NCBI RefSeq assembly: GCF_016899775.1
Contig: NZ_JACJJE010000007.1
Coordinates: 23,256 to 87,255 of the forward strand
Reading direction: 5' to 3'
Origin: Pseudoflavonifractor capillosus
GTDB taxonomy: Bacteria > Bacillota > Clostridia > Oscillospirales > Oscillospiraceae
DNA length: 64,000 nucleotides
The position numbers and the translations under genes were made by a program. Below are positions 2,874-56,256 of the stretch, one piece after another. Positions within the stretch are counted from its first letter, which is position 1; every line of letters starts with the position of its first letter. The notes under the pieces are model-generated. The model saw only the letters and a program-made list of their open reading frames with translations, was not told the origin of the DNA and ran no database searches.

Positions 2874-2928
2874 TCGGAACCTATTTGGGAGCAGGAGGCC
2901 CGGGGTTCGAGTCCCCACACTCCGACCA
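2874..2928 (+). ncRNA. tRNA-like T-arm/acceptor/CCA module (3' module of element copy A, detached from its 5' block)
   Basis: Sequence GGGGTTCGAGTCCCC-ACACTCCG-A-CCA is homologous to the 3' ends of copy B (16291-16348) and copy C (50440-50478). A terminator follows directly. Confidence 0.35.
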
Positions 2929-2937
2929 CCTTACGCA

Positions 2938-2976
2938 GAAAAACCGCCTGAAAAGGCGGTTTTTCTGCGTTTTTTG
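2938..2976 (+). terminator. intrinsic terminator
   Basis: AAAACCGCCTGAAAAGGCGGTTTTT hairpin followed by a T-run, immediately after the CCA. Confidence 0.6.
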
Positions 2977-3150
2977 TTCTATTTTTGTTGCTTGGACGAT
3001 TGCGGTTCGGCTCTGTATATCGCCGCCTCCTTTTTGCCACCGAACAATATCAAAGAAAGAGGGAAATATCTACTACTTTATCACCCTATGTCAACCTCTG
3101 TTGTCTTTTGTGCAGAGGCATGAGAAAATGGCTTAGGTTGCTTGCAGGAA

Positions 3151-3342
3151 GGGTTTATTCTTTGTTTATGCGGCGCATTTCCTGCGCCGCTCCTCTGAGG
3201 TGATTAGCCTGTCATCGCCCCCTCAAACCAGGCGGAACATCTTTTAATATACAGAATTCAATCCCACACCCATCCCAAAAGACGAAAGGTTTTCTTGAAA
3301 CAAGCAGGGCAAAAGAGTTCTAAAGAGAAACTGCCGAAGCAG
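3151..3342 (+). ncRNA. conserved ~190-nt block of the tRNA-like-terminated element family, copy A (5' block, lying downstream of its own 3' module)
   Basis: About 85% identical to 16061-16250. Shared strings are gggttt(t)attct(c/t)tgtttatgcggcgca, gaggtgatt(t)agcctgtc, ccctcaaacc and gaaaggttttcttgaaacaagcagggcaaaagagttctaaagag. Contains a perfect hairpin GCGGCGCAtttccTGCGCCGC. Confidence 0.35.
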
Positions 3343-3517
3343 AGGAAAGGGCCAAAGAGGGCGATAGAGTTCAGACACACATATGGTCCTCCTCTCAGAC
3401 AAAGCGTGTTACTCGGGTGTGGAACCCTCTGGTTGATTCTATTTTACGGTATGGGGCATGCAGAATAAAGGGCTTCTCCCGCAAATAACAGGGGGCTATT
3501 TCTGCAAAAAGGGAGCA

Positions 3518-4042
3518 TTAACCGCCGTTTTTGTCCCCCTTCCGGTAGGCATTATACTGCTCAATATCAATAATTCCATTATCCAGCATCTTTTCGCACC
3601 AGAGCTGGAGGGTTTCCACTGTGATAGAGATCCGCTCCAGCTCCTCCTGGATGTGAATAAAATCGGCCAGCTCATCTTCCGTAATTTGCCCGTCGGCGGT
3701 GATCTCGATCAGCCGCTCCTTCTGCTTGTTCATGGAGTTGAGAGAGACCAGCATCTCCAGGACAATCTGGGAGAGCTCCTTGATCTTGATCTCTGGAACG
3801 TACTGCCACCCGATGGGACACTGGCTGGCACAGTAGTAGTTGCACAGTCCAGGCTGTTTATATTGATCGGACATTAGCAGCACCTCATCCGGATGGGGCA
3901 TGGAGCGCTCATTTTCAATCTTCTCAATCCGCTCGGGAGACATGGTCACCAACAGCTCACTGGCGTCCTCCCAGGTCGGTTTCAGACTCTCCCGGGTCAG
4001 CTGGTAAATGGCCTTGTTTTCTTTGGTGGATACTCTGGCCAT
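3518..4042 (-). CDS. hypothetical protein (possible HTH/Cys-containing regulator)
   Basis: ORF 3518..4072; likely start at MARVSTK. Lower GC than neighbours. No confident family assignment. Confidence 0.35.
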   Translation of the reverse strand: MARVSTKENKAIYQLTRESLKPTWEDASELLVTMSPERIEKIENERSMPHPDEVLLMSDQYKQPGLCNYYCASQCPIGWQYVPEIKIKELSQIVLEMLVSLNSMNKQKERLIEITADGQITEDELADFIHIQEELERISITVETLQLWCEKMLDNGIIDIEQYNAYRKGDKNGG

Positions 4043-4246
4043 GATGCTTTCCTCACTCCATGCAAGAACCAAAACTTCTAGGTCCTGTTTTCTCCATTAT
4101 ACGGGATATGAGGGATAAAAACAATTACTTTCCTTGCCCTTTTCTCCCGTACGCCCTATGGAAACAAAAAAGGCGTTTCCTTTCCCGCCGGAACGAATCG
4201 CCGGTAAAGGGCAGGGAGCGTCTTTTTCTGCATGATAAACATCTTG

Positions 4247-4933
4247 TCACAGGTTCTGTTCCATATTGGCGCTGATCACATTGAAGTGGTGGTTGATGGC
4301 CAGAATCAGCTGGGCCTTATCCCGGCGGGCCAGAGCGTCCACAATCTGTTCGTGGGCGTACTGCAGCTGGTTGCCGGTCTGGAAGTTGCGCAGGATATGC
4401 CGGCGCATATCGGTGATGAAGCGGTCGATAGTGGTGGAGAGGGCCCGGTGAATCTGGATAATCAGCTCGTTGCCTGAGATGGCGGCAATGGTATCATGGA
4501 GCTGCTTATCCAGTTGGGCGGCCCGCTTGGAGGAACAGGACGCCATCTCCTCCACCATTCCGGACAGCTCCCGGACCTGCTCGTCGGTGATGCGCCCCAG
4601 GGCCAACAGGGCGGCCTGCAGCTCCAGGCCCGCCCGCAGCTCCCCCAGCCTCCGGTAGTCGATCTGCTGCAGGAGCATCAGCAGGTCAAAGGAGTCCTGC
4701 AGATTGCGCTGGATGTTGCAGCAGATAAAATTGCCGGCCCCTTGGTTGCTGACGATAAATCCCATATGCTCCAGCAGCCGAACTGCCTCCCGCACCGAGT
4801 TGCGGCTGATGCCCAACTGCTCGGCCAGCTCCCGCTCCGGAGGCAAGGGATCCCCCAGGGACAGCTGTCCGCGGCGCAAGGAATCCTCCAGATAGGTGAG
4901 CACTTTTTCATAGGATTTGGGCTGTTCCGCCAT
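4247..4933 (-). CDS. GntR/FadR-family transcriptional regulator (LldR/PdhR-like)
   Basis: HTH motif ELAEQLGISRNSVREAVRLLEHMGFI plus a C-terminal FCD-like helical domain. RBS AGGAGG precedes ATG at 4933. Divergent from the lactate cluster. Confidence 0.75.
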   Translation of the reverse strand: MAEQPKSYEKVLTYLEDSLRRGQLSLGDPLPPERELAEQLGISRNSVREAVRLLEHMGFIVSNQGAGNFICCNIQRNLQDSFDLLMLLQQIDYRRLGELRAGLELQAALLALGRITDEQVRELSGMVEEMASCSSKRAAQLDKQLHDTIAAISGNELIIQIHRALSTTIDRFITDMRRHILRNFQTGNQLQYAHEQIVDALARRDKAQLILAINHHFNVISANMEQNL

Positions 4934-5224
4934 GGAAATCTTCCTCCTTGGCATGATGTACATGTAAATAGTATAGCACAAGGAGAAGGCCACTGTAAAG
5001 GTGCGACCAACTCATTCTAACTGGTAGGACCAACATGTTTTTAAAAAAGCCGATAATTGCAAACTTTTTCGTAATATTGTCCAATTATCGCCTTGACATC
5101 TAGAAGTCTCAGGAATAATATATAAATGTTCTAAAAATTCCTTGTATTGTTGCGCGCTTTTTATTTTATATGGTAGAACCAATTTAAGGAATAGGTCAAC
5201 CACTGAAACAGGAGGTTATCATCT

Positions 5225-6514
5225 ATGCAGACGATTTCCCTTCCTTACGGACGGGGCCGGGTTGAGGCTCAGATCCCGGACCAGCGCCTGGCGGCGGTTC
5301 TCCGCTCCGGCGCACAGAGCTATCGGCCTCAGGCCGACCAGGATCAGCTGGTGCGGCAGGCTCTGGAGAACCCCATCGGCACGCCCCCGCTCCGGGAATT
5401 GGCCAAAGGCAAGCATCAGGTTGTCATTATCAGCAGCGATCACACCCGCCCGGTCCCCAGCAAGGTTATTTTGCCCCAGTTGGTAGATGAGATCCGGGCC
5501 GGTTCCCCTTCTGCAAAGATCACCGTGCTGGTGGCCACCGGCTTCCACCGCCCCACCACCCGGGAAGAGATGCTGGACAAATACGGCGAGGAGCTTTTCC
5601 TCCGGTCCGGCCTGCACTTTGCCGTCCATCTCAGCGGCAAGGATGAGGACATGGTATCTCTGGGCACCCTGCCCTCCGGCGGCAAGCTGCTCATCAACAA
5701 GCTGGCCGCCCAGGCGGACCTGCTGGTGGCTGAGGGCTTCATTGAGCCCCACTTCTTTGCCGGTTTCTCCGGCGGGCGCAAGAGTGTGCTCCCCGGAGTC
5801 GCCAGCCGGACCACCGTACTGGCCAACCACTGCTCCGCTTTCATTGACAGCCTCTTTGCCCGCACCGGCATCCTGGACGGCAACCCCATTCACCGGGATA
5901 TGATCTACGCCGCCCAGCAGGCTAAGCTGGCTTTCATCTGCAATGTAGTCATTGACGAGAAAAAAGAAGTGATTGCCGCTTTCGCCGGCCACTTCAATGA
6001 GGCCCACCGGGCTGGCTGCGCTTTTGTAGAACAGCTCTCCGGTGTCTCAGCTGTCCCCGCCCCCATTGTCATCTCCACCAACGGCGGCTATCCCCTGGAC
6101 CAGAACATCTACCAATCGGTGAAGGGAATGACCGCTGCCGAGGCCACCTGCGCCCCCGGGGGTGTGATCATTATGGTCTCCGCCTGCAGCGACGGACACG
6201 GCGGCCAGTCGTTCTACGACACCTTCGCTCAGGAACCCGACGAGGAAAAAATCATGGCCTCCTTCCTGGCCACCCCCAGCGACCGCACCATTCCCGACCA
6301 GTGGGAAGCTCAGATTCTCTGCCGTATTCTCTTAAAGCACCCGGTGATCATGGTCACCCAGGCCCCCCGGGAGATGGTGGAGGCCATGCACATGCACTGG
6401 GCCCCCGATCTTTCGGCGGCCATCGACCTGGCCGACCGGCTGCTGGGCTGGGCGGACAGCCCCATCACGGTAATCCCCGACGGCGTGTCGGTGATTGTAA
6501 AGAAAGCAGAATAA
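5225..6514 (+). CDS. larA: LarA-like nickel-dependent lactate racemase (DUF2088 N-terminal domain)
   Basis: 429 aa; N-terminal region MQTISLPYG...ISSDHTRPVP...ATGFHRP is typical of the LarA family. Confidence 0.7.
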   Translation: MQTISLPYGRGRVEAQIPDQRLAAVLRSGAQSYRPQADQDQLVRQALENPIGTPPLRELAKGKHQVVIISSDHTRPVPSKVILPQLVDEIRAGSPSAKITVLVATGFHRPTTREEMLDKYGEELFLRSGLHFAVHLSGKDEDMVSLGTLPSGGKLLINKLAAQADLLVAEGFIEPHFFAGFSGGRKSVLPGVASRTTVLANHCSAFIDSLFARTGILDGNPIHRDMIYAAQQAKLAFICNVVIDEKKEVIAAFAGHFNEAHRAGCAFVEQLSGVSAVPAPIVISTNGGYPLDQNIYQSVKGMTAAEATCAPGGVIIMVSACSDGHGGQSFYDTFAQEPDEEKIMASFLATPSDRTIPDQWEAQILCRILLKHPVIMVTQAPREMVEAMHMHWAPDLSAAIDLADRLLGWADSPITVIPDGVSVIVKKAE

Positions 6515-6551
6515 ATTACTTAATGAGAAGGAAAGAAAAGAGGAATCCGCT

Positions 6552-7973
6552 ATGAGTCAGTATGAAAAAGTGACCCCCGAACTGATCCAGGCGTTGCAGG
6601 CTGCGGTGCCCGGCCGGGTCAGCGTGGACGGGGACATCAACGACGACTTCTCCCACGACGAGATGCCCATCTACGGCAAGGCCATGCCCGAGGTGGTGGT
6701 GGAGGCTGTCTCCACCGAAGAGGTGGCCGCAGTGATGAAGCTGTGCAACGAGCACCATGTACCGGTCACCCCCCGGGGCGCCGGCACCGGCCTGACCGGC
6801 GGCGCTGTCCCGGTCTGCGGCGGTGTGGTGCTGTCCATCGCCAAGATGAACAAGATTCTCTCCTACGACACCGACAACATGGTGGTCCGGGTCCAGGCCG
6901 GCGTGCTCCTCAACGATCTGGCCGAGGACGCAGCCAAGAAGGGCTTCCTCTATCCCCCCGATCCCGGCGAGAAGTTCGCCACCCTGGGCGGCAACGTGTC
7001 CACCAACGCCGGCGGTATGCGGGCGGTCAAGTACGGCACCACCCGGGACTATGTGCGGGCCATGACCGTGGTCCTGCCCACCGGTGAGATCGTAAACATG
7101 GGCGCCAGCGTATCCAAGACCAGCTCCGGCTACTCCCTGCTCAATCTGATGATCGGCTCTGAGGGCACTCTGGGCATCATCACCGAGCTGACTCTGAAGC
7201 TGATTCCCGCCCCCAAGGCTGTCATCAGCCTGGTGGCCCTCTATGAGAACCTGGAGGACTGCATCGCCACCGTGCCCAAAATGATGCGGGCCAACCTGCA
7301 CCCCCAGGCCCTGGAGTTCATGGAGCGGGAGATCGTCCGCCTCAGCGAGTCCTACCTGGGCAAGAGCACCTTCCCCCAGACCTTTGAGGGCAGCGACGTG
7401 AACGCCTACCTGCTCATCACCTTCGACGGGGACAGCGAGGAGCAGCTGGACGAGATGATCGAGCAGGCCTCCGAGGTCCTGCTGGAGGCCGGCGCTCTGG
7501 ACATCCTGGTAGCCGACACTCCCCAGCTGAAGAAGGACGCCTGGGCCGCCCGTTCCACCTTCCTGGAGGCCATTGAGGCCAACACCAAGCTGCTGGACGA
7601 GAGCGACGTGGTGGTGCCCGTCAACGAGATCGCCCACTATGTGAACTTCATCAACGAGATCGCCAAGGACTACGACTTCGAGGTCAAGAGCTTCGGCCAC
7701 GCCGGCGACGGCAACCTGCACATCTACAACTGCTCCAACGACATGGACCCGGAGGAGTTCAAGCGCCAGGTGGCCGCCTTCATGAAGCGGGCCTACGGCA
7801 AGGCCACTGAGCTGGGCGGCCTCATCTCCGGCGAGCACGGCATCGGCCGGGGCAAGATGGAGTATCTGGCCGAGATGGTGGGCCCGGTGAACATGCGCCT
7901 GATGGAGGGCATCAAGCACACCTTTGACCCCAACATGATCCTGAATCCCGGCAAGGTCTGCTACACCCTGTAA
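6552..7973 (+). CDS. FAD-linked oxidase (GlcD/LctD-like, probable D-lactate dehydrogenase)
   Basis: 473 aa with a FAD-binding PCMH domain (TPRGAGTGLTGGAVP) and a C-terminal FAD-oxidase domain (HAGDGNLH). Confidence 0.75.
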   Translation: MSQYEKVTPELIQALQAAVPGRVSVDGDINDDFSHDEMPIYGKAMPEVVVEAVSTEEVAAVMKLCNEHHVPVTPRGAGTGLTGGAVPVCGGVVLSIAKMNKILSYDTDNMVVRVQAGVLLNDLAEDAAKKGFLYPPDPGEKFATLGGNVSTNAGGMRAVKYGTTRDYVRAMTVVLPTGEIVNMGASVSKTSSGYSLLNLMIGSEGTLGIITELTLKLIPAPKAVISLVALYENLEDCIATVPKMMRANLHPQALEFMEREIVRLSESYLGKSTFPQTFEGSDVNAYLLITFDGDSEEQLDEMIEQASEVLLEAGALDILVADTPQLKKDAWAARSTFLEAIEANTKLLDESDVVVPVNEIAHYVNFINEIAKDYDFEVKSFGHAGDGNLHIYNCSNDMDPEEFKRQVAAFMKRAYGKATELGGLISGEHGIGRGKMEYLAEMVGPVNMRLMEGIKHTFDPNMILNPGKVCYTL

Positions 7974-8014
7974 ACATACTGGAAAAGACAGAAAATCGAG
8001 CGGAGGAAAAACTC

Positions 8015-9154
8015 ATGTCCTATTTGATTTCAGAGGCTGCCCAGGATCTGCTGGGCGATGTGAAGGATTTTTGTGAAAACGAGGTCAAGGAGCCCTGCAA
8101 GGAGTTTGACCGCAGCGGCGAGTGGCCCAAGGAGATCTACGACCAGGCTATCGAGATGCAGCTGCAGACACTGGAGGTCCCCGAGGAGTACGGCGGCCCC
8201 GGTCTGAGCCGGGTGGATGTGGCCGCCCTGTTTGAGGAGATGGCCAAGGCCGACGCCGGCTTTGCTACCACCATCTCCGCCAGCGGCCTGGGCATGAAGC
8301 CGGTGCTCATCGCCGGCAACGAGGCCCAGAAGAAGCACGCCTGCCAGCTCATCATGGACGGCGGCTTCGGTGCCTTCTGCCTCACCGAGCCCGGTGCCGG
8401 CTCCGACGCTAGCGCCGGCAAGACCACCGCCGTGAAGGACGGGGACAGCTACATCCTCAACGGCCGCAAGTGCTTCATCACCAACGGCGGCGTGGCCTCC
8501 TTCTACTGCGTCACCGCCATGACCGACAAGTCCGCCGGCGTGAAGGGCATGTCCATGTTCTTCATCGAGGCCGGCACCCCCGGTCTCTCCACCGGCCACG
8601 AGGAGGACAAGATGGGTATCCGCACCTCCAACACCTGCGACGTGGTGCTGGACGACTGCCGTATCCCTGCCTCCGATCTGCTGGGCGCTGAGGGGCAGGG
8701 CTTCACCATCGCCATGAAGACTCTGGACCAGGCCCGTGCCTGGATGGGCTGCATCGCCACCGGCATCGCCCAGCGGGCCATGGAAGAGGCCATTGCCTAT
8801 GGCAAGGAGCGTGTCCAGTTCGGCAAGCCCATTCTGAAGAACCAGGCCCTCCAGTTCAAGGTGGCTGACATGGCCATCAAGATTGAGACCGCCCGTCAGA
8901 TGGTGGCCCACACCCTGACTCTGATGGATCAGGGCCTGCCCTGCTCCAAGGAGTCCGCCATCGCTAAGTGCTATGCTTCCGACATCGCCATGGAGGTGGC
9001 ATCCGAGGCCATCCAGATGTTCGGCGGTTACGGTTACAGCCGGGAGTACCCGGTGGAAAAGCTGCTCCGCGACGCTAAGATCTTCCAGATCTTTGAGGGC
9101 ACCAACGAGGTGCAGCGCATTGTGGTTGCCAACAACACCATTGGAAAATTCTAA
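8015..9154 (+). CDS. acyl-CoA dehydrogenase (butyryl-/acryloyl-CoA reductase-type)
   Basis: 379 aa with ACAD motifs (CLTEPGAGSDA, QIFEGTNEVQR). Immediately upstream of etfBA. Confidence 0.8.
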   Translation: MSYLISEAAQDLLGDVKDFCENEVKEPCKEFDRSGEWPKEIYDQAIEMQLQTLEVPEEYGGPGLSRVDVAALFEEMAKADAGFATTISASGLGMKPVLIAGNEAQKKHACQLIMDGGFGAFCLTEPGAGSDASAGKTTAVKDGDSYILNGRKCFITNGGVASFYCVTAMTDKSAGVKGMSMFFIEAGTPGLSTGHEEDKMGIRTSNTCDVVLDDCRIPASDLLGAEGQGFTIAMKTLDQARAWMGCIATGIAQRAMEEAIAYGKERVQFGKPILKNQALQFKVADMAIKIETARQMVAHTLTLMDQGLPCSKESAIAKCYASDIAMEVASEAIQMFGGYGYSREYPVEKLLRDAKIFQIFEGTNEVQRIVVANNTIGKF

Positions 9155-9173
9155 TTGAAGGAGCTCGAGTGAT

Positions 9174-9965
9174 ATGGAGATTCTGGTTTGCCTGAAGCAG
9201 GTGCCCGATGACTCGGTGGAAATCCATCTGAAGCCCGGCACCGAGGAAGTGAATCTGGACGGCGTTACCCCAGTGGTCAACGCCTTTGATACCTATGCGC
9301 TGGAGATGGCCACCCGCCTCAAAGAAGCCGTGGGTGGCAACATCACCGCCATCACCGTGGGCCCAGAGAAAGCCCGGGACGCGGTGAAGACCTGCCTGGC
9401 CGTGGGCGCCAACCAGGGCTATGTCATCAGCGACCCCACTTTTGAGGGCGCGGACACCCTGGGCCGCAGCAAGATCCTGGCCGCCGCCATCCGGAAGCTG
9501 GAGGCGGACGCCGGCAAGCCCTTTGACCTGATTTTCTGCGGCCGCGAGGCCACCGACCGGGCCAGCGGTCAGCTGGGGCCCCAGCTGGCTGAGGCCATGG
9601 GCACCGGCGTGATTGTGGACCTGGTGGACATCGAGCAGACGGACGCCGGCATCTGCGCCAAGCAGGAGACTGAGGAGGGCTACCGCAAGGTAGAGTCCGC
9701 GCTCCCCTGCGTGGTCACGGTGAACAAGCCCGCCTATGACCCCCGTTACCCCACCATCAAGAGCAAGATGGCCGCCCGGAAGATGGCCATCCCCGTGCTC
9801 TCCGCCGCCGATCTGGACTCTGTGGAGCCCGGCAAGCCCACCGCCCACGTGGTCAAGGTCTTTGAGCCCGCCAAGCGCCAGGCCGGTGTGAAAATCAACG
9901 AGGAAACTGCTGCGGAATCCGCCATCAAGGCTGTGGATATGATGGCCGCCGCCAAGCTGCTGTAA
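9174..9965 (+). CDS. etfB: electron transfer flavoprotein beta subunit
   Basis: Starts MEILVCLKQVPD; typical EtfB. Confidence 0.85.
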   Translation: MEILVCLKQVPDDSVEIHLKPGTEEVNLDGVTPVVNAFDTYALEMATRLKEAVGGNITAITVGPEKARDAVKTCLAVGANQGYVISDPTFEGADTLGRSKILAAAIRKLEADAGKPFDLIFCGREATDRASGQLGPQLAEAMGTGVIVDLVDIEQTDAGICAKQETEEGYRKVESALPCVVTVNKPAYDPRYPTIKSKMAARKMAIPVLSAADLDSVEPGKPTAHVVKVFEPAKRQAGVKINEETAAESAIKAVDMMAAAKLL

Positions 9966-9978
9966 AGGAGAGACAGAC

Positions 9979-10968
9979 ATGGATTGGGGCAATTGCAAAG
10001 ATATTCTGGTCTTCCTGGAGCAAAAGGAAGGCAAAGTGGTAAATGTGAGCCTGGAGGCTCTGACTCCCGCCCGCACCCTGGCCGGTCTCACCGGCGGTAA
10101 GGTGCTGGCTTTGGCGGTGGGCACGGACAATGCCGCCGCCGCAGAAAAGGCTGCTCCGCTGTGTGACGGCGTACTCTCGGTAGAGGGTGCTGCCTTCAGC
10201 GACGGCTGCAGCGACGCCATGGTCTGCGCGCTGGAGGCCATGGTCAACAAGTATGCGCCCGCCGCGGTGCTGGCCGGCAACACCCCCCTGGGCCGGGAGC
10301 TCACCGCCCGGCTGGACGCCCGGAAGGGCCTGGGCAGTGTGCAGGACGCCACCGCGCTGAAGATCGACAACGGCACCCCCGTATGGACCGTTCCCCTCTA
10401 CGGTGGCACGGTGCTCAACGACGTGGTGGTGGACACCCTGCCTGTAGTGGCCACCGTCCGCTCCGGCGCCTTCTCCAAGCCTGAGGCCGGCGAAGCCGCC
10501 CCTGTCACCGCTGAGGCGGTGGAGGTGCCCGCCGATGCCATCAAGACCAAGGTAGTGGAAGCGGTGAAGGAGATCTCCGAGTCCGTGAACCTGGAGGAGG
10601 CCAAGGTCATCGTCACCGGCGGCCGTGGTATGGGCAGCCAGGAGAACTTCGCCCTGGTGGAGGAGCTGGCCCAGCTGCTGGGCGGCGTGGTGGGCGCCAC
10701 CCGTCCTGCCATCGAGGAGGGCTGGGTGTCCCGTGCCCACCAGGTAGGCCAGTCCGGCAAGATTGTCTCCCCCGCCCTGTACATCGCCTGCGGCGTGTCC
10801 GGCGCCACCCAGCACGTGTCCGGCATGACCGGTTCCGGCTATGTGGTGGCCATCAACAAGGACGAGGACGCCCCCATCTTTGATGTGGCCGATGTGGGCA
10901 TCGTAGGCGACGTGATGAAGGTTCTGCCTGCCATGATCGAAGAAATCCGCAAGCGCAAGGCAGAGTAA
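9979..10968 (+). CDS. etfA: electron transfer flavoprotein alpha subunit
   Basis: C-terminal FAD-binding motifs (IVSPALYIACGVSGATQHVSGM). Confidence 0.85.
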   Translation: MDWGNCKDILVFLEQKEGKVVNVSLEALTPARTLAGLTGGKVLALAVGTDNAAAAEKAAPLCDGVLSVEGAAFSDGCSDAMVCALEAMVNKYAPAAVLAGNTPLGRELTARLDARKGLGSVQDATALKIDNGTPVWTVPLYGGTVLNDVVVDTLPVVATVRSGAFSKPEAGEAAPVTAEAVEVPADAIKTKVVEAVKEISESVNLEEAKVIVTGGRGMGSQENFALVEELAQLLGGVVGATRPAIEEGWVSRAHQVGQSGKIVSPALYIACGVSGATQHVSGMTGSGYVVAINKDEDAPIFDVADVGIVGDVMKVLPAMIEEIRKRKAE

Positions 10969-11045
10969 CCCAGTGGGCAGCTCTGCTACCTTTCCCCCGG
11001 TACTTTGCACGATGGCATGATTGGACAAAAACAACAACACACAAC

Positions 11046-11097
11046 GGCACCCCGTTGGTCCAGCCTCACCGGTTGGTCCGACGGGGTGCCGTTTTTC
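11046..11097 (+). terminator. intrinsic terminator downstream of etfA
   Basis: GGCACCCCGT...ACGGGGTGCC hairpin followed by TTTTTC. Confidence 0.55.
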
Positions 11098-11224
11098 TAA
11101 ACCGGGCGCCCTCTGCCAGCAACTGAGGTACAAATACAGAAACGGTGGGAGCCAGAGGCCCCCCTGATCAAAACCTCCGGCTCCCGCCAGAAAGAAGGTT
11201 GGTATTTTCGAAACGTTTCCTGTC

Positions 11225-12892
11225 TCACCCCAGCAGTATCGTGATTGCATGGTCTAAAATATGGGGCGTTCTGTCATACAGGTTCTCCATCAGAACACGC
11301 TCGGTCAGCTTATGAAAATCTTTTCCCCAGGGGCCGATGTTGATGCCTGCCATGGAAATCTTCTTGATCTCTTCAAAGGGAATGTCATAATACCATCCGA
11401 ACAGAGGCATACTCTGGGAAATCCGTTTCCGCTGCTCCTCCGGATCTTCAATGTTGATATAGCTCAAATCACAGATTCCGGTGTAGAAATATTCCCGGTC
11501 GTACTCCTGACCATAGCGCTCTTTGGTATAGCAATTGAGTTTCCCGCTCATATCCTGCGCTTCCGGAGCCATATCCGCAAAATAACAATTTAATACATTG
11601 GGATAATAGGGCGGCATCAGACCATACACAATGCGGGGTGATATGTCCTCAATATAGTCATAAATCCGGTCGATCAGGCGGAAATTTGCCTCGATCATAT
11701 AGATCCTGCCCTGTTCCAGTTCTTGTCGCAGCTGCTTCTGTTCCGCGGCAAACGCAGCGGCAAACGCTTCTCCGCCGCTGGCACAGGCCTCCTGGTACAG
11801 CTCGCCGAACGTCACCACCTTTTCCTTCCAGGGCAGCCGTTCCACAGGCCGCCCGGTTCGTTTCCGGAATTCAGCATAGCTTGCATTCAGCCGGTCAATC
11901 ACCGCCGCAAAGCTCTCTTCACAGATCCTCTTAACACGCTCCATCAGCTCCCCGGGTGTCTGTTTTAGCGTCAGAACACTGAAACATTCCTGCGCCGTCA
12001 GCGGCATGGAAACATCATAGCGGTCTTTGCTGTCCTTCATATACAGCCACATGGGAGGCGGCGCCGCTTCCCCCTGGACCGTGTCCGAAAACTCCATATT
12101 AACTTCTGTCCGGGTCACAATTTCTGCCAGGACAGAGGCCGGGTTGAGCCCTTCAAACACCTTGCCGGCGTGGGAAAGGAAGCCGCGCACATATATAAAC
12201 GGCATCATCTTACCCACGGTTCCTCCTGAAAACACGCCCCGGGAAAAATCCTTCCGCTGGTGGGGCTCGGAATTGATCATCATCAGGTAGCGCAGGCCAT
12301 ACCGGTCCTGCAACTCTGCCAGCAGACGATCCGCTCCCCGCATACCGGCCGACAGATTTTCTTCATCGGGAACCCCGAGCACAATGACATTGCCCTGGAA
12401 ATCCGGCAGGCGGCTGTATGCCTCCAGCAGTGCGTACTGAATGGACCCTCCGCCCTCCATATCGCAACCGCCCCGGCAGAACAGGAACTTTCCCGACTCC
12501 AGATCTTGCCGGGCCTCCTCCGGCAGCATATCCTTATGCTGCATCAGCGCCTCCCGTAGTGGTTCCGGCGCATAGGCCCAGGACTTCAATGTCTTGTAAT
12601 CCTCAATGTCCACCACGTCGTAATGGTGGACCAGCACGATGGTTTTGTCTCCGCTCCCCCGGACCATAGCCCAGCATACGCTGCGCCCCAGGCCGTCCCC
12701 CTGGATGGGATACAGCCCCCAGTGATCCGGATGCTGGGCAAAGTAGGGAATCTCCTGGATGTACGCCCGGAAAAAATCCTCCACGCCGCGCTCCGCCTGT
12801 GTATTAGTTATACTTGGAACCGCTACATAGCGATAGAGCAGTTCTTGGATGCGCACGCCCAGCTGATCAAAGTCAATGTCATGGTTTTTCAT
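11225..12892 (-). CDS. M20-family metallopeptidase (RocB-like)
   Basis: About 555 aa; likely start MKNHDIDF. HHYDVV motif typical of the M20 family; length matches RocB-like proteins. Confidence 0.5.
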   Translation of the reverse strand: MKNHDIDFDQLGVRIQELLYRYVAVPSITNTQAERGVEDFFRAYIQEIPYFAQHPDHWGLYPIQGDGLGRSVCWAMVRGSGDKTIVLVHHYDVVDIEDYKTLKSWAYAPEPLREALMQHKDMLPEEARQDLESGKFLFCRGGCDMEGGGSIQYALLEAYSRLPDFQGNVIVLGVPDEENLSAGMRGADRLLAELQDRYGLRYLMMINSEPHQRKDFSRGVFSGGTVGKMMPFIYVRGFLSHAGKVFEGLNPASVLAEIVTRTEVNMEFSDTVQGEAAPPPMWLYMKDSKDRYDVSMPLTAQECFSVLTLKQTPGELMERVKRICEESFAAVIDRLNASYAEFRKRTGRPVERLPWKEKVVTFGELYQEACASGGEAFAAAFAAEQKQLRQELEQGRIYMIEANFRLIDRIYDYIEDISPRIVYGLMPPYYPNVLNCYFADMAPEAQDMSGKLNCYTKERYGQEYDREYFYTGICDLSYINIEDPEEQRKRISQSMPLFGWYYDIPFEEIKKISMAGINIGPWGKDFHKLTERVLMENLYDRTPHILDHAITILLG

Positions 12893-12929
12893 ACGCTCAC
12901 CGCGCTCTACTTTCTGCACACAGGACAAG

Positions 12930-13768
12930 TCAGGCAGGTCGGCCCGCCAGTTCCCTTATAGGAGATTTCCTGTCCCTCAGCACTTCAATTCCCTTGTCCT
13001 CCAGCTTTTTCTGGATCTCCGGACAGCCCTGAATCAGCACGCATTTTTTCGGCTCCAGAGCCAGGAGATTCGTGCCCAAATAATCATACTCCTTGTCTCC
13101 GCACTCAATCAGCTCAAATCCTTTCTCCAGCAGATAGTTGCGGAAAAATACCGGCATATACTTGGAGTAGACCACCGCTTTGTCCGTATCCACAAAGCTG
13201 ACAATGCTCATCAGAGGCAGGCAGGCATCCGGGCCGTCACCGTAGGGCATGGGAACGATCACATACTCATCCACCAGCCCTTTTGTCAGTTCCTTGAATT
13301 GACGGATGCCCTCCTCGTTGGTCCGGCGGCCCAGCCCAATGGCCACGGTGCGCTCATCAATCCAAAGGACGTCGCCGCCCTCCATCTTTCCAGGAGGCTG
13401 AATATATCCCAGGGTGGGTACGCCCTGACTTTTCAGGAACTCTTCCGTAGCCAGATATTCCTTGCTGCGCAGCTCCTTCCCCATGGGGAAGTAATGGCTC
13501 CCTTTTCCGTAATTTTAACCGGATCATGGGTATAAATGGAGTCCAGGCCACCTCTGGGATCATAGGGCAAGGCATATACATTGGGAACATGGGCCCGAAT
13601 AATGGACTCAAACGTATTATATTCCTTTTTGTCAAAGTCCGGGCATCCAAAATACTTAAAGGCCTCTCAGTTGGCTTCCAGATTTTCCTGACTGACATAG
13701 GCATCCACCGGCCGCTTGATCAATATGCTGTCAATTTTCTTGACCATACTTTGACATCCGTAATTCAT
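12930..13768 (-). pseudogene. amidinotransferase-superfamily gene (arginine deiminase/DDAH-like) disrupted by an in-frame TGA and a frameshift
   Basis: N-terminal frame MNYGCQSMVKKIDSILIKRPVDAYVSQENLEAN is followed by TGA, then EAFKYFGCPDF...PVKITEKGAI in the same frame. A +1 shift then leads into the 184-aa ORF 12930..13484 (MGKELRSKEY...). RBS AGGAGG before ATG 13768. Confidence 0.5.
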
Positions 13769-13783
13769 CGCACAAACCTCCTG

Positions 13784-14665
13784 TTATAGTCCTCTGTACT
13801 CTTTATGCTCCTGCTTGATCTGATGCATGCGATCCGGGTTGCAATACAGCGCCGCGGCATTCTGGATGGCCTGATGGGTATTGGGCTTAGTCATCTCTTC
13901 CGCAAATTCCACCGTGTGGCACTGATAGTCTTTCCCAATGCTCATCACCGGATGGAACGCCGGGCAGTGGTAATCCACATTGCCGATGTCAGATGAGCCG
14001 GTCATGCCCTCCACTCCCTCCAGCAAGGGGAGATCCAGCGCCTCATAGCATTCCTTCATAACCTGCCTGCCCGAGGGACTGACATACAGTTCATGATAGG
14101 CCTCGCCCACCGGATGGAACTCCACCTGGGTCCGGGTGGCCATGGCAGCCGCTTTGGAACAATCCTTGACACACTGGGTGATGTCATTGAGCTGGCTGCG
14201 CTTTGGTGCCCGGGTCAGAAATTCAACCTCCGCCCGGTCCGGCACAATATTGGAGGCCATGCCGCCAGCCTTGATTATTCTATGGATTCTCGCATCCTGG
14301 ATGATATGCTGACGCATCATATCCGTGGCATCCATAAACAGTCTGGCCGCATTGAGGGCGTTGCGTCCCTGCTCCGGCGCGGAAGCCGCATGGGCGGCCA
14401 CCCCGGTCCATATAAACTGCAACCCATCCAAGGCAATAAAATTGACATCAATGAGATTTGCCCCTCCCATATGCACCATGATGGCAAAATCATAGGCATC
14501 GAAAATTCCCTGATCTGCCATGATACATTTTGCGCCGTTGATTTCTTCATCCGGAGTGCTGATGATATCCACCCCGAAGGGCAGTTGCTCTTTTATGGCG
14601 TTCAGAGCCAGGGCGGACAGCACGCTGGCGCTGCCGCTGGCACAGTGGCCGCAGGCATGACCCAT
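13784..14665 (-). pseudogene. 5'-truncated M20D amidohydrolase (Ama/HipO-like)
   Basis: ORF begins with the MGHACGH motif, which normally lies ~100 aa into M20D enzymes. The upstream sequence is unrelated AT-rich DNA, so the N-terminus is missing. Confidence 0.45.
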
Positions 14666-16060: not shown

Positions 16061-16348
16061 GGGTTTTATTCTCTGTTTATGCGGCGCAGTTTTTGCGTCT
16101 CTGTTTTGAGGTGATTTAGCCTGTCCCCCCCTCAAACCGGACGGAACATCTTTTAATACACAGAATCCAATCCCACATAAATCCCAAAAGGCGAAAGGTT
16201 TTCTTGAAACAAGCAGGGCAAAAGAGTTCTAAAGAGGAATTGCCGGAGCACTGAGAAGCGTTAAACAGGGTACAAAAGTACTCCTTGAAAGGACGGACAT
16301 ATTTTTGGGAGCAAGATGCCGGGAGTTCGAGTCTCCCCACTCGGACCA
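16061..16348 (+). ncRNA. unclassified structured ncRNA candidate with tRNA-like 3' terminus, copy B (contiguous)
   Basis: A ~190-nt block homologous to 3151-3342 is followed by tttgggagcaagatgcc, then GGGAG-TTCGAGT-CTCCC (T-arm), then CACTCGG-A-CCA, then a terminator. No coding potential. Confidence 0.4.
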
Positions 16349-16384
16349 AAAACCGCCTAAAAACTGATGTTTTGAGGCGGTTTT
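16349..16384 (+). terminator. intrinsic terminator immediately after the encoded CCA
   Basis: AAAACCGCCT...AGGCGGTTTT hairpin followed by a T-run. Confidence 0.6.
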
Positions 16385-21752: not shown

Positions 21753-22944
21753 CTCCCTCCGGCCTGTCTCTTTGCCACGGTTTCAGGTCTTCCCCCAGGA
21801 GATCTTCCAGGAAACCGCCCACGATGTGGCTGGCCTCCTGCTGCATGTCCGGCGTCACGTGGGTGTAGGTGTCCAGGGTGAAGCTGGCGTTGGTGTGGCC
21901 CAGGATACCGGACAGGGTCTTGGTGTCCACGCCGCTGGTGAGGGCGTGGGTGGCAAAAGTGTGCCTTAAATCGTGGAATCGGATCGCAGGCAGCCCCGCC
22001 TCTCTTAAGATTCGCTTCATCCAGTAGTAGGCGGCACTGGGGCGTACCGGCTTCTCCGGAGCCAGAGGTTCCGGGAAAATCCACTGACTGACGGCGTGCT
22101 TTTTCCGCTCCTTCAGCCGCTGGACGGTGCTGGGCGGCAGACGAATGGTCCGCCGGCCCTGGCTGGTCTTCGTCTCGCCGATCTCCAGCTCTCCGGCCTT
22201 GGGGACATTTACCGACCGAAGGACCCTCAGCGTTCCGGCCTTCTCGTCGAAGTCCTGCCACATGAGACCGCAGATCTCGCCCCGCCGCAGGCCGGTGGTC
22301 AGCTCCGTGTAGAAGAAGTCACGCCAGATCTCGCTGCGGTCTACCGCCGCCAGGAAGATGTCCATCTGCTCCTTTGTGAGGATCTGTTTGGGCTTATAGC
22401 TGGCCTTGGGCACCACAGCCCCGTCGGTGGGGTTCCGGGCGATCACATGGGCGGCCTCCGCGTCCTTCAGGCACCGATGGAGCATGGCGTGGATGCGGAG
22501 CACCATGGTGTCCGACAGTTCGTGCCCGTGTTCCGGGTGCTCGCGGACACGGCCCTCGTGTTTCAGTTTTCGGTACAGCTTTTGAATGTCCATGCGGGTC
22601 ACCCGGGAGACGATCTTATCCCCCAGATAGGGCTTGATGTAGCACAGGATGAACTGCTCGTAGCTGCGCAGGGTGTTGGGCCGCAGGGTGGCCGCACCGT
22701 AGTCCTCCATCCACCGGTCCAGCCATTCCCCCAGAGTCATGCGGCTGTCCTCGGTGAGCTCCACGTCCTGAAAGGCCTCCAGGTCCCGGTGGAGCTTGTC
22801 CAGCAGTTCCTTCTGGGTTTTCGCCAGGACATACCGAAAGATGGGCTCGCCGTTTTGCTTGTGGCCCACCACGATGCGGCCCTCCCAGCGGCCGTCCTCC
22901 CGCTTTCGGACCATGCCGTCGCCGGATGGCCGTCGCTTTGTCAT
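21736..22944 (-). CDS. tyrosine-type site-specific recombinase/integrase
   Basis: REDGRWEGRIVVGHK arm-binding module and HDLRHTFATHALTSG...LGH...YTH catalytic motifs. Overlaps the downstream integrase by 17 nt. Confidence 0.8.
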   Translation of the reverse strand: MTKRRPSGDGMVRKREDGRWEGRIVVGHKQNGEPIFRYVLAKTQKELLDKLHRDLEAFQDVELTEDSRMTLGEWLDRWMEDYGAATLRPNTLRSYEQFILCYIKPYLGDKIVSRVTRMDIQKLYRKLKHEGRVREHPEHGHELSDTMVLRIHAMLHRCLKDAEAAHVIARNPTDGAVVPKASYKPKQILTKEQMDIFLAAVDRSEIWRDFFYTELTTGLRRGEICGLMWQDFDEKAGTLRVLRSVNVPKAGELEIGETKTSQGRRTIRLPPSTVQRLKERKKHAVSQWIFPEPLAPEKPVRPSAAYYWMKRILREAGLPAIRFHDLRHTFATHALTSGVDTKTLSGILGHTNASFTLDTYTHVTPDMQQEASHIVGGFLEDLLGEDLKPWQRDRPEGGARHG

Positions 22945-49443: not shown

Positions 49444-50118
49444 ATGCGTACCTTTACAACAGGTGACGAGACCATCTCTATCTTTCCGTGCAGCGAATCA
49501 GAGTCTCCGGTTATCTACCTCAACACCTTCCACGATGAAAGCCAAAAGGTATATGAGACTGCACAGGCTACTGGTTGCCCACCGTTTACCTTGGTAGCCA
49601 TCAGTAATCTGGACTGGAACCAAGACATGGCTCCGTGGGACAGTCCGGCGGCCTTCAAGAAGGGAGAACCCTTTACCGGCGGGGCAGGTGACTACCTGCG
49701 GCTGCTGGTGGAGGAGATCATACCCAGGGCAGAAAAAGAGCTGGTCGGGCCTCCGGCGTGGCGGGGAATCGCCGGGTACTCTCTGGCGGGGTTATTCGCC
49801 CTGTACACCATCTACCAGACAGATGTGTTCTCGCGGGTGGGGTGCATGTCCGGCTCCTTGTGGTTTCCTGGTTTCAAAGAGTACATCTTCTCCCACGAGC
49901 CGAAGCGCCGGCCAGACTGCATCTATTTCTCTCTGGGGGACAAGGAGGCCAAGACACGCAATCCGGTTCTGAAAACAGTTCAGGAGAATACAGAGGAAAT
50001 CCAGGCTTTTTACCAGGGCGAGGGCATCGACACAGTGTTCCAACTGAATTCTGGAAACCATTTTGTCCAGGGGATCGAACGGACCGTTGCGGGCATTCAG
50101 TGGCTGTTGAGCAAATAG
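49444..50118 (+). CDS. alpha/beta-hydrolase esterase (putative-esterase family, PF00756-like)
   Basis: GxSxG nucleophile elbow GYSLAG; 224 aa. Confidence 0.65.
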   Translation: MRTFTTGDETISIFPCSESESPVIYLNTFHDESQKVYETAQATGCPPFTLVAISNLDWNQDMAPWDSPAAFKKGEPFTGGAGDYLRLLVEEIIPRAEKELVGPPAWRGIAGYSLAGLFALYTIYQTDVFSRVGCMSGSLWFPGFKEYIFSHEPKRRPDCIYFSLGDKEAKTRNPVLKTVQENTEEIQAFYQGEGIDTVFQLNSGNHFVQGIERTVAGIQWLLSK

Positions 50119-50133
50119 GGGCTGGCCTCCCGG

Positions 50134-50478
50134 CCCTTATTCTTTGTTTCGGCGTGTGAAAAACTGATACGCCCGCCGCACAGAAAAGACTTGCACACTC
50201 GCTTTGCCAGAGGTACAATACCCCAAACCCAGAGTTACGAAAAAACGCTTCCCGGCCGGGGCAGGCAGACACCTGCCGCCCCTGGTCAGGAAGCGTTTTT
50301 GACCCCATATTTGACCACAGTCAGGACTGGAATACCCGGAAACAGTGGATTTAAGAGCGTCAAAAAATATTCAATACCGAGCGGAAAATGCTGGAAAGCA
50401 CTACAAATTATCACAAAAAATTTGGTTCAAGCGTTTGGGATCACGGGGCCGAGCGTTCGAATCGCTCCACTCGGACCA
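50134..50478 (+). ncRNA. unclassified ncRNA candidate with tRNA-like 3' terminus, copy C (diverged, contiguous)
   Basis: 5' end cccttattctttgtttcggcg matches copies A and B. The 3' end is tttgggatcacggggcc-GAGCG-TTCGAAT-CGCTC-CACTCGG-A-CCA, followed by a terminator. Confidence 0.35.
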
Positions 50479-50479
50479 C

Positions 50480-50516
50480 AAAAATCCTCTGAAGTCATTG
50501 ATTTCAGAGGATTTTT
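50480..50516 (+). terminator. intrinsic terminator after copy C
   Basis: AAAAATCCTCTGAA-gtcattga-TTCAGAGGATTTTT. Confidence 0.5.
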
Positions 50517-51045
50517 GCGCATAGATCGGCGTTATATCACCTTTAAATCAATTTTTGCTCAGATGAATGATTTTTTGCAAATTGTATAAAACTGACCATC
50601 CATTGCATATCTGGATAATTTGTCTGACGCTTATGAATCCTGACACAAATTAAATTCCGCCAAACACCTTATGCTGCAATGGATTCTGGCGATTTTCCGT
50701 CTCGAAATATTGGCGTAGATTTTTATAGAGATGTATGGTATCTTGATAGGCCTTAGCCTGGTGAGTGGGCATGTCCGACAGAAGGAGACCTTGGATTGGA
50801 TCCACCAGATCTGCCGTTCCACTGGCATGTTCTGAAAGCAAAGTCAATACCTCGGACAACAATACTATGCAAAATGCATAGTATTGTTGCGGATTGATGC
50901 CTGTGATAAAATACAAAATGACCAACAAAGATGAAAAATTAGGAGTTGATTGTGATATTGCACCCTATATTTCATAAGAATGCTTTATGTCAAATTGTAT
51001 GAATGAATCAATTTGACACGGCGAGAAAGGATGGAGGAAATAAGA

Positions 51046-53565: not shown

Positions 53566-53580
53566 GAGAGGGAGTATACT

Positions 53581-56226: not shown

Positions 56227-56256
56227 CGATCCTTACAATAAAGGAGAGCGCATAAA

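What the first reader, a model, noticed from the sequence alone, without database searches (positions are those of the whole stretch)
2874..3342. Three diverged copies of an unclassified ~300-nt element ending in a tRNA-like T-arm/acceptor/CCA module plus terminator; copy A is rearranged
Copies B (16061-16348) and C (50134-50478) each consist of a 5' conserved start (gggtttattct.tgttt..gcggcg), internal conserved strings (ccc.caaacc; tttggga.ca....gcc), then a perfect T-arm (GGGAG-TTCGAGT-CTCCC in B; GAGCG-TTCGAAT-CGCTC in C), the identical 3' strand CACTCGG-A-CCA and a Rho-independent terminator. In copy A the 3' module (2874-2928 plus terminator) lies about 220 nt upstream of its 5' block (3151-3342), which implies a rearrangement or circular-permutation-like order. 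None has coding capacity. All three sit exactly at boundaries between gene blocks (CotH cassette | lactate cluster; decayed genes + TA | core genes; defense island + esterase | TIR array). This RNA family may be a tRNA-like regulatory or structural RNA, or a family of integrase target sites whose reuse shaped the island structure.
Basis: seen in the sequence. Interest (0 to 1): 0.7.

Follow-up and report, generated by a model that had tools for sequence, protein, structure and literature searches.

The report
Leftover tRNA-Pro halves marking island junctions
The "tRNA-like modules" are the displaced 3' halves of a proline tRNA gene left where mobile elements inserted, and the conserved stretch beside two of them is the end of one such element family. 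This is a textbook signature of genomic islands, not a new RNA.

Summary
The three 3' modules are real (2884-2928, 16304-16348, 50434-50478). Each is the 3' half of a tRNA-Pro(UGG) gene, starting exactly at the anticodon loop TTTGGGA and running to CCA, followed by the gene's terminator. The window holds no 5' half and no intact tRNA.

Copy B's half is 100% identical to the 3' half of the intact tRNA-Pro gene in sister-strain contigs. An occupied contig (L024) and an empty one (L025) are identical from the first base of the anticodon loop onward and unrelated upstream.

The 5' block is shared only by A and B (86% over 192 nt). It recurs in about 100 Oscillospiraceae loci, joined at a fixed distance to more than 35 different tRNA-Pro halves. 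It usually sits next to tyrosine integrase genes, and it shows no structural covariation.

Copy C shares only the tRNA half. Its "conserved 5' start" is the T-tail of the esterase terminator.

Copy A is not rearranged. It is two separate remnants: a tRNA half with its flank, and an orphan element end cut at the crossover point.

Verdict: these are attR-type junction remnants at a tRNA-Pro integration hotspot. It is a known kind of feature and of low interest.

The parts
2884..2928 (+). Fragment A3: 3' half of a tRNA-Pro(UGG) gene (anticodon loop to CCA), decayed (T-stem pair 49-65 is C-A)
   Evidence: Pattern match. It is 84-90% identical to the 3' halves of intact tRNA-Pro genes. The same sequence with an intact T-stem forms the 3' half of a complete tRNA-Pro in L008.
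2929..3011 (+). Native tRNA-Pro terminator (2933-2970) and downstream flank
   Evidence: Terminator scan. 2884-3011 is 90% identical to L020 8126-8253, which is the 3' half plus the flank of an intact tRNA-Pro gene.
3012..3150 (-). Remnant of the first ~9 codons of a tyrosine-integrase paralogue, plus its upstream spacer with a promoter-like site at 3094-3065
   Evidence: 3012-3370 is 83-85% identical to L012 6640-7007 and L016 6814-7180. In L012 the integrase-like ORF starts at 6667. Promoter-like match on the minus strand.
3151..3382 (+). Block A: orphan copy of the conserved element end (presumed attP/attR arm), cut exactly where the tRNA core normally begins
   Evidence: The junction reads ...ACACACAT|ATGGTCC, and the flank sequence of L020 (8599 onward) resumes at 3381.
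16062..16303 (+). Block B: conserved element end (presumed arm) of the same family
   Evidence: 86% identical to block A. Aligned with 15 other units. Present in about 100 loci.
16304..16348 (+). Fragment B: displaced 3' half of the resident tRNA-Pro(UGG) gene
   Evidence: 100% identical to the 3' half of the intact tRNA-Pro in L019, L020, L022, L023 and L025.
16349..16384 (+). Hairpin terminator of the tRNA-Pro gene, followed by the native downstream flank (GDSL lipase, TetR, MCRA)
   Evidence: Inverted repeat. The same terminator and flank follow the intact tRNA-Pro in L025. The gene order matches L022.
50114..50151 (+). Terminator of the esterase gene. Its T-tail is the supposed 'conserved 5' start' of copy C
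   Evidence: Terminator scan. The esterase ORF is 49444-50118. The only match to the A/B block is a 13-mer with E about 0.9.
50237..50433 (+). A different, unrelated junction arm. It contains a stretch (50282-50321) resembling the region just upstream of tRNA-Pro genes
   Evidence: 89% identical to L021 20844-21039, where it is joined to a different tRNA-Pro half and flank. 50282-50321 is 85% identical to L025 7768-7807.
50434..50478 (+). Fragment C: 3' half of a tRNA-Pro(UGG) gene of a different allele
   Evidence: The Rfam tRNA model matches positions 31-71 only, 5'-truncated, E 0.045. blastn hits annotated phage tRNA-Pro genes. T-stem 5/5 paired.
50479..50517 (+). Hairpin terminator after fragment C
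   Evidence: Inverted repeat, 92% over 39 nt.

Best explanation
The window crosses a tRNA-Pro(UGG) integration hotspot in a gut Oscillospiraceae genome.

Proposed mechanism:
- Elements carrying tyrosine integrases recombine with the tRNA-Pro gene inside its anticodon loop. The overlap lies within TTTGGGA.
- The incoming element supplies a replacement 3' part. In some relatives it supplies a whole tRNA-Pro gene.
- The native 3' half, its terminator and the downstream chromosome are pushed to the far end of the element. There they abut the element's own terminal sequence. This is the attR configuration.
- Repeated insertions, followed by deletions, leave a row of orphan 3' halves.

How the window fits:
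- The three 'T-arm/acceptor/CCA modules' are such orphan halves.
- The ~240-nt block next to B, and the orphan block in A, is the conserved terminal non-coding module of one widespread element family. It lies between that family's integrase genes and the crossover point.
- It is most likely the integrase-binding arm of the attachment site. It contains short direct repeats, AATCCCA twice and (C/A)AAAGAG(G/T) three to four times.
- Fragments A3 and C are joined to two other, unrelated arms, so at least three kinds of element have used this site.
- The apparent covariation in the T-stems exists because each half came from a once-functional tRNA gene. The pieces themselves are not functional RNAs.

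Shown here: the tRNA identity, the exact breakpoint, the occupied/empty polymorphism, the linkage to integrases, and the many different partners.
Inferred: that the block binds integrase, and the exact order of events that produced copy A.
For: 1. tRNA identity. blastn of B hits annotated tRNA-Pro genes over 16304-16348 only. An intact tRNA-Pro(UGG) in Subdoligranulum aligns across the half plus its terminator. The Rfam tRNA model matches positions 31-71, 5'-truncated.

2. Resident gene. Sister contigs that carry the identical LarA protein have an intact tRNA-Pro whose 3' half is 100% identical to fragment B. Its 5' strand CCGGGTG pairs 7/7 with CACTCGG.

3. Occupied versus empty site. L024 has the integrase pair, HTH_17, a restriction-modification system and the block. 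L025 has tRNA-Gln and an intact tRNA-Pro. The two are 100% identical from the first T of TTTGGGA for more than 2.1 kb, and about 25% identical upstream.

4. tDNA plus cognate fragment on one contig. L022 is 99.96% identical to window 3890-10988. It has an intact tRNA-Pro at 8095-8170 and block+fragment at 18052-18324. The lactate cluster lies between them.

5. One arm, many partners. In 96 loci the block is followed at a fixed distance by the TTTGGG core in at least 93. There are 35 or more distinct 45-nt halves and about 49 flank types.

6. Integrase linkage. 35 of 43 loci with enough upstream sequence have a minus-strand tyrosine-integrase homologue within 4 kb. In 24 of them it lies within about 400 nt of the block.

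7. The arm next to C is joined to a different half in L021.

8. Decay. A3 and some relatives have broken T-stem pairs.

9. This matches the published island signature: a tDNA plus a displaced fragment, an attP of about 250 bp, an anticodon-centred class, and tandem arrays (PMC4383910). Tandems and remnants are also described in Faecalibacterium (PMC12084326).
Against: - No intact tRNA-Pro and no 5' half lie inside the window, so the attL partner of the array was not seen for this genome. Attempts to extend upstream failed.
- No integrase gene adjoins A or B in the window. The two integrase genes at 20160-22944 are only about 33% identical to the block-linked ones, and they are not next to a fragment.
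- The segments between fragments carry ordinary metabolic genes rather than recognisable transfer or phage modules.
- No attP or circular form of the block family was recovered, and it is absent from viral contigs.
- The central ~110 nt of the block is almost invariant across genera. That is more than discrete protein-binding sites would require.
- Not all strain differences break at the fragments. For example, L021 diverges from the window near 13784.
Confidence: 0.9

Rival explanations
1. The block plus the tRNA half is a genuine chimeric non-coding RNA gene: a ~290-nt RNA with a tRNA-like 3' domain, acting as a regulatory or structural RNA.
For: The unit has sharp 5' and 3' borders and is conserved in about 100 loci across several genera. 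The T-stems show compensatory differences. A terminator follows the CCA. The central ~110 nt is nearly invariant.
Against: - There are no Rfam or ARAGORN hits.
- There is no 5' acceptor or anticodon-stem partner (0-2 of 5 and 1-3 of 7 pairs).
- RNAalifold gives only -20 kcal/mol for 300 nt, with a covariation term of -0.5.
- The tRNA part and everything downstream are base-for-base the resident tRNA gene's 3' half and flank.
- The half varies with the host while the block does not.
- Several halves are decayed.
- No promoter-like site was found upstream of B.
Confidence: 0.03
2. The halves are tRNA-Pro pseudogenes made by ordinary duplication, deletion or homologous recombination. No site-specific integrase was involved.
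For: No integrase flanks A or B in the window. In L024 the repeats flanking the lactate cluster extend beyond the tRNA half to include a GDSL-lipase gene, which suggests homologous recombination also acts here.
Against: More than 90 independent junctions, and three unrelated upstream arms, all break at the same nucleotide, the 5' edge of the anticodon loop. The block family is tightly linked to tyrosine integrase genes. All fragments have the same orientation as the intact gene.
Confidence: 0.05
3. The att-junction picture is right, but the ~240-nt block is not an integrase-binding arm. It is some other terminal cis element that merely sits at the element's end, such as a regulatory region for the divergent integrase genes, a transfer origin, or a small leader ORF.
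For: The block lies directly upstream of the divergently transcribed integrase genes in many loci. Its near-invariant 110-nt centre exceeds what arm sites need. An 11-codon ORF (ATG CGG CGC ... TGA) is intact in 76 of 91 copies.
Against: - In several subgroups, cargo genes separate the block from the integrase gene while the block stays fixed to the core.
- Its length and position match a typical attP arm of about 250 bp (PMC4383910).
- The mini-ORF has no ribosome-binding site and its residues vary freely.
- Direct repeats at helical spacing are present.
Confidence: 0.2

Closest known systems
Genomic islands integrated in tRNA genes, anticodon-centred att class (the Islander signature; PMC4383910)
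   Same: A tyrosine-integrase element splits a tRNA gene. A same-orientation 3' fragment, displaced to the far end, marks the island boundary. The crossover is in the anticodon loop. The attP-derived arm is about 250 bp. Tandem arrays occur at one tDNA.
   Different: In this window the array is degraded. No intact tDNA lies inside the window, no integrase is next to fragments A or B, and one arm copy has lost its core. The cargo is a lactate-utilisation cluster and defence genes rather than a recognisable prophage or ICE.
Tandem or composite ICE/IME arrays and decayed remnants in Firmicutes, including Faecalibacterium (PMC12084326). From my own knowledge, also integrase-less cis-mobilisable elements (CIMEs) flanked by att sites in Streptococcus thermophilus
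   Same: There is side-by-side accumulation at one att site. Remnants lack recombinase genes. Elements carry only tyrosine recombinases and cargo. The host family is the same (Oscillospiraceae).
   Different: That paper mentions tRNA-Leu and tRNA-Ser sites. I did not find tRNA-Pro(UGG) or this arm sequence described there. No conjugation or mobilisation genes were identified here.
Phage lambda attP organisation: arms carrying arm-type Int, Xis and IHF sites around a 7-bp overlap (own knowledge)
   Same: A non-coding arm of a few hundred bp sits next to int, with short direct repeats. The crossover occurs within a 7-nt segment.
   Different: Binding sites are not demonstrated here. The target is a tRNA anticodon loop. 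Two adjacent integrase paralogues are present, one of which has only the N-terminal SAM-like domain detectable.
RNAs with tRNA-like 3' domains (tmRNA, bacterial Y-RNA-like YrlA)
   Same: A T-arm and an acceptor 3' strand ending in CCA, followed by a terminator.
   Different: There is no 5' acceptor strand, no Rfam or ARAGORN match and no structured body. The sequence is simply half of the resident tRNA-Pro gene.

Membership tests
tDNA-fragment island junction (attR) of tyrosine-integrase elements | The piece is a terminal (3') fragment of a tRNA gene, not an internal or chance match | tested here: met
   All three run from the anticodon loop to CCA. B is 100% identical to the intact gene's 3' half. 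The Rfam tRNA model matches positions 31-71. Annotated tRNA-Pro genes are hit.
tDNA-fragment island junction (attR) of tyrosine-integrase elements | An intact cognate tRNA gene lies upstream in the same orientation, with the island between it and the fragment | tested here: inconclusive
   Met in sister contig L022, which is 99.96% identical to the window: tRNA-Pro at 8095-8170 and fragment at 18280-18324. Not observable for the window itself, which has no tRNA. The upstream sequence could not be fetched.
tDNA-fragment island junction (attR) of tyrosine-integrase elements | Occupied and empty alleles differ by a breakpoint at a single position inside the tRNA gene | tested here: met
   L024 and L025 are identical from the first T of TTTGGGA onward and unrelated before it.
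tDNA-fragment island junction (attR) of tyrosine-integrase elements | A tyrosine integrase gene lies within the island | tested here: inconclusive
   Met for the block family in general: 35 of 43 loci, with Pfam Phage_integrase and Phage_int_SAM_3, and in L024. In the window only about 9 codons remain beside block A, and none remain beside B. The B-C segment has two integrase genes at 20160-22944, but they are not adjacent to a fragment.
tDNA-fragment island junction (attR) of tyrosine-integrase elements | The element-side sequence is constant while the target-side sequence varies with the host | tested here: met
   One block is joined to 35 or more distinct halves and about 49 flank types. 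The C-type arm is joined to two different halves.
tDNA-fragment island junction (attR) of tyrosine-integrase elements | Demonstrated excision or integration (attP circle, restored attB) and integrase binding to arm sites | not testable with these tools
   Only repeat motifs were found. There was no attP form in viral contigs.
Structured ncRNA with tRNA-like 3' domain (tmRNA, YrlA-type, other Rfam families) | Match to a curated covariance model or a tmRNA detector | tested here: not met
   No gathering-level Rfam hit in the 64 kb. Only noise appeared at E up to 10. ARAGORN found 0 tRNA or tmRNA.
Structured ncRNA with tRNA-like 3' domain (tmRNA, YrlA-type, other Rfam families) | A 5' strand that closes the acceptor stem | tested here: not met
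   No 5' half is present in the window at up to 3 mismatches. The positions upstream pair at 1-3 of 7.
Structured ncRNA with tRNA-like 3' domain (tmRNA, YrlA-type, other Rfam families) | Conserved secondary structure with covariation in the body | tested here: not met
   RNAalifold on 17 units gave -20.2 kcal/mol and a covariation term of -0.51. Only 4 of 41 pairs show any double change.
Functional tRNA-Pro gene | Complete cloverleaf (acceptor, D, anticodon and T arms) | tested here: not met
   ARAGORN was negative. The anticodon-stem 5' strand and the acceptor 5' strand are absent.

The most novel reading that the evidence does not exclude
The ~240-nt block could be more than a passive integrase-binding arm. 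Its central ~110 nt is almost invariant across genera. It could be transcribed, possibly through the adjoining tRNA half, which would give a tRNA-like 3' end that can be processed. The product would be a cis- or trans-acting RNA that controls the paired integrases or helps them recognise the tRNA-Pro anticodon region. The block does contain two inverted TGGGATT motifs that resemble the TTGGGA core.
Probability: 0.04. Interest if true: 0.6.

Novelty: new member of a known kind. Interest (0 to 1): 0.15.

Why it matters
- The result turns an apparent new RNA family into a precise map of island boundaries. In this common gut Oscillospiraceae lineage, the tRNA-Pro(UGG) anticodon loop is a reused landing site.
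- The adjacent segments sit in the variable array at this one locus. They are the CotH cassette, the lactate-utilisation cluster, and the integrase, McrBC and pPIWI defence island.
- The conserved arm plus core is a handy marker for finding this element family in metagenomes.
- The case is also a caution. Half-tRNAs with 'covarying' T-arms and terminators are expected debris of site-specific integration. On their own they are not evidence for a functional RNA.

Tried and rejected
- tmRNA, permuted tmRNA or an intron-containing tRNA: ARAGORN and Rfam were negative. Rejected once the halves matched tRNA-Pro.
- An exact 40-mer and a 24-mer of the block in viral contigs: no hits. The family is therefore not a recognised phage.
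- Phage and plasmid blastn of copy B: only the 45-nt tRNA part hits anything.
- Fetching sequence upstream of the window to find the intact tRNA: the CotH and DUF4956 look-ups failed or returned short contigs.
- Structured-RNA test of the block: weak fold and no covariation.
- Searching the window for integrase remnants next to A or B: only the pair at 20160-22944 was found.
- Mini-ORF in the block: the frame is kept in 84% of copies, but there is no ribosome-binding site and the residues vary. I judged it incidental.
- I considered that the fragments might be element-supplied rather than displaced native halves. For B, identity to the resident gene and its native flank argues for displaced or native origin. 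For A3, the acceptor strand (CACTCCG) does not pair with this species' 5' strand (CCGGGTG), so it probably came in with a foreign element.

Full report
**What is in the sequence**

The three 3' modules are real. The pattern TTTGGGA-N15-TTCGANT-N5-CAC occurs three times, all on the plus strand, at 2884, 16304 and 50434. Only 0.03 matches are expected by chance.

A hairpin follows each module. The scan called a terminator only after copy A (2933-2970). After B and C the evidence is inverted repeats.

A self-comparison of the window shows what is shared:
- The 5' block is shared only by A (3151-3341) and B (16062-16250), at 86% over 192 nt.
- Copy C shares nothing with them except the 45-nt module and a 13-mer at chance level (E about 0.9).
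- That 13-mer is the T-tail of the terminator of the esterase gene, which ends at 50118.

ARAGORN finds no tRNA or tmRNA in the window. Rfam finds nothing at gathering level in 64 kb, and only noise at E up to 10 around B and C.

**What the 3' module is**

Each module is the 3' half of a tRNA-Pro(UGG) gene. Read as a tRNA, it consists of:
- the anticodon loop TTTGGGA (anticodon TGG)
- the 3' anticodon-stem strand
- a 5-nt variable loop
- the T arm
- the 3' acceptor strand
- discriminator A, then CCA

Several independent results support this:
- blastn of copy B against phage records hits annotated tRNA-Pro genes, and only over 16304-16348.
- A Subdoligranulum record aligns over the half plus its terminator, and ARAGORN calls an intact tRNA-Pro(TGG) there.
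- When fragment C is given to Rfam on its own, it matches tRNA model positions 31-71, flagged as 5'-truncated.
- No 5' half exists anywhere in the window.

**Sister strains settle the origin**

The LarA protein of the window occurs unchanged on many metagenome contigs whose flanks differ.

In five of the eight contigs fetched, an intact tRNA-Pro sits upstream of the lactate cluster. Its 3' half is 100% identical to fragment B. Its 5' strand CCGGGTG pairs 7/7 with CACTCGG.

L024 and L025 form an occupied/empty pair:
- They are 100% identical from the first T of TTTGGGA for more than 2.1 kb downstream.
- They are at random identity upstream.
- L025 carries tRNA-Gln and the intact tRNA-Pro.
- L024 carries two tyrosine-integrase genes, an HTH_17 gene, a restriction-modification system and then the block.

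L022 is 99.96% identical to window 3890-10988. It has both the intact tRNA-Pro and, 10 kb downstream, block+fragment B, with the lactate cluster in between. This is the classical signature of an island in a tRNA gene: a regenerated tDNA at one end and a displaced fragment at the other (PMC4383910).

**What the 5' block is**

A 24-mer from the block was found in 16 genomes of Oscillospiraceae and related Clostridia. Those with a genus name are Faecalibacterium, Flavonifractor, Pseudoflavonifractor, Intestinimonas, Ruthenibacterium and Gallacutalibacter. It was also found in 85 metagenome contigs.

The block is a unit of about 240 nt with a sharp 5' border (TTATTCTTTGTTTATGCGGCG). Upstream sequences fall into several unrelated groups.

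Of 96 loci with enough sequence, at least 93 continue at a fixed distance into the TTTGGG core. After the core there are 35 or more different 45-nt halves and about 49 kinds of flank. One constant sequence is therefore joined to many different targets.

The block is linked to integrases:
- Of 43 loci with at least 3.2 kb upstream, 35 have a minus-strand tyrosine-integrase homologue within 4 kb.
- In 24 of these, the homologue lies within about 400 nt of the block.

The block does not look like a structured RNA. RNAalifold on 17 units gives a weak fold (-20 kcal/mol over 300 nt) with essentially no covariation.

It does contain short direct repeats: AATCCCA twice, 11 nt apart, and (C/A)AAAGAG(G/T) three to four times.

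I infer that the block is the arm of the attachment site, or at least the terminal cis-acting module, of one widespread integrative element family. Binding was not tested.

**Copy A is not a rearranged copy**

Copy A breaks down into four pieces:
- Window 2884-3011 matches the 3' half, terminator and flank of the intact gene in L020 (90%).
- 3012-3370 matches the first codons of the integrase paralogue, its upstream spacer and the block in L012 and L016 (83-85%).
- At 3381 the L020 flank resumes.
- The block ends at ...ACACACAT, exactly where the core normally begins.

Copy A is thus two remnants side by side. One is a decayed tRNA half; its T-stem pair 49-65 is C-A, whereas the same sequence in an intact tRNA-Pro of L008 has C-G. 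The other is an orphan element end that has lost both its integrase gene and its core. The end point at the crossover site suggests an integrase-mediated event at a secondary site, but that is inference.

**Copy C has a different arm**

Window 50237-50433 is 89% identical to a stretch in L021. In L021 that stretch is followed by a different tRNA-Pro half and a different flank. The arm upstream of A3 is unrelated to both other arms. At least three kinds of element end are therefore fused to tRNA-Pro at the same nucleotide.

**Mechanism**

Tyrosine integrases exchange strands within the 7-nt anticodon loop. In L008 the intact gene and its fragment share only TTTGGG after the breakpoint. Each insertion displaces the previous 3' half downstream, and deletions then erode the elements.

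The T-stem 'covariation' is inherited from functional tRNA genes of different hosts or elements.

**Weaknesses**

- The intact tRNA of this particular genome was not recovered.
- No attP form was found.
- The window's islands lack adjacent integrases.
- The 110-nt near-invariant centre of the block is not fully explained.

**Verdict**

The RNA-family interpretation is rejected, and the 'integrase target site' alternative is supported. This is a known kind of feature (PMC4383910; tandems and remnants in a related genus, PMC12084326), possibly an undescribed element family. Interest is low.

Noticed in passing
window 20160-22944 (-): Two adjacent tyrosine-integrase genes (530 and 402 aa; Phage_integrase plus Phage_int_SAM_3), about 33% identical to the block-linked integrases. 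They lie about 4 kb downstream of fragment B, after the GDSL-lipase, TetR and MCRA genes. Their own attachment site was not identified.
   Followed up: partly
window 28287-49206 (-): A run of defence-type genes: an SF1 helicase with DUF2726, McrBC with an AAA_5 partner, ResIII/SNF2 helicases, a PLD-nuclease helicase with DUF3427, and a pPIWI_RE-associated REase. It ends at the esterase gene and fragment C.
   Followed up: partly
window 51013-58809 (+): Three tandem large paralogues (850, 881 and 850 aa). The first has TIR, TPR and RCC1 repeats. They lie directly downstream of fragment C.
   Followed up: no
L067, L095, L100 (oriented so the block is on the plus strand; about 100-190 nt after the 24-mer): In some relatives the core TTTGGGAG is followed by about 30 nt and then a complete tRNA-Pro gene. 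Some elements may therefore bring a whole replacement tRNA gene rather than a 3' half. Alternatively these may be junctions between tandem elements.
   Followed up: partly
L019 7912-8170; L058, L102, L109: Some strains have two tandem tRNA-Pro(UGG) genes, the first with an odd 3' half. Block-type elements sit in the first gene and leave the second intact about 110 nt downstream.
   Followed up: partly
L024 7854-8861 and 17824-18822: The lactate cluster is flanked by direct repeats that include not only the tRNA-Pro half and terminator but also a GDSL-lipase gene. This suggests flanking DNA was captured, or that homologous recombination acts in addition to site-specific events.
   Followed up: no
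L006 4773-5504, L012 5936-6667, L015, L024 5629-6339 (next to the block): The gene closest to the block is a ~240-aa protein with only the N-terminal SAM-like integrase domain detectable. A full-length tyrosine integrase always follows it. This may be an arm-binding or directionality partner.
   Followed up: no
window 3167-3202 and 16079-16114; block family generally: An 11-codon ORF (MRR[SIN][FS]C..L[RG]*) at the 5' end of the block keeps its frame in 76 of 91 copies. It has no ribosome-binding site and its residues are variable. It overlaps a GC-rich hairpin.
   Followed up: partly
window 10989-13786: A 2.8-kb segment (M20 peptidase and amidinotransferase-like genes) is present in the window but absent from the otherwise 99% or more identical contig L022. 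This is a strain difference that does not break at a tRNA fragment.
   Followed up: no
window 50241-50300: A long, nearly perfect inverted repeat (about 60 nt, GC-rich) lies between the esterase terminator and the arm of copy C. Its function is unknown.
   Followed up: no
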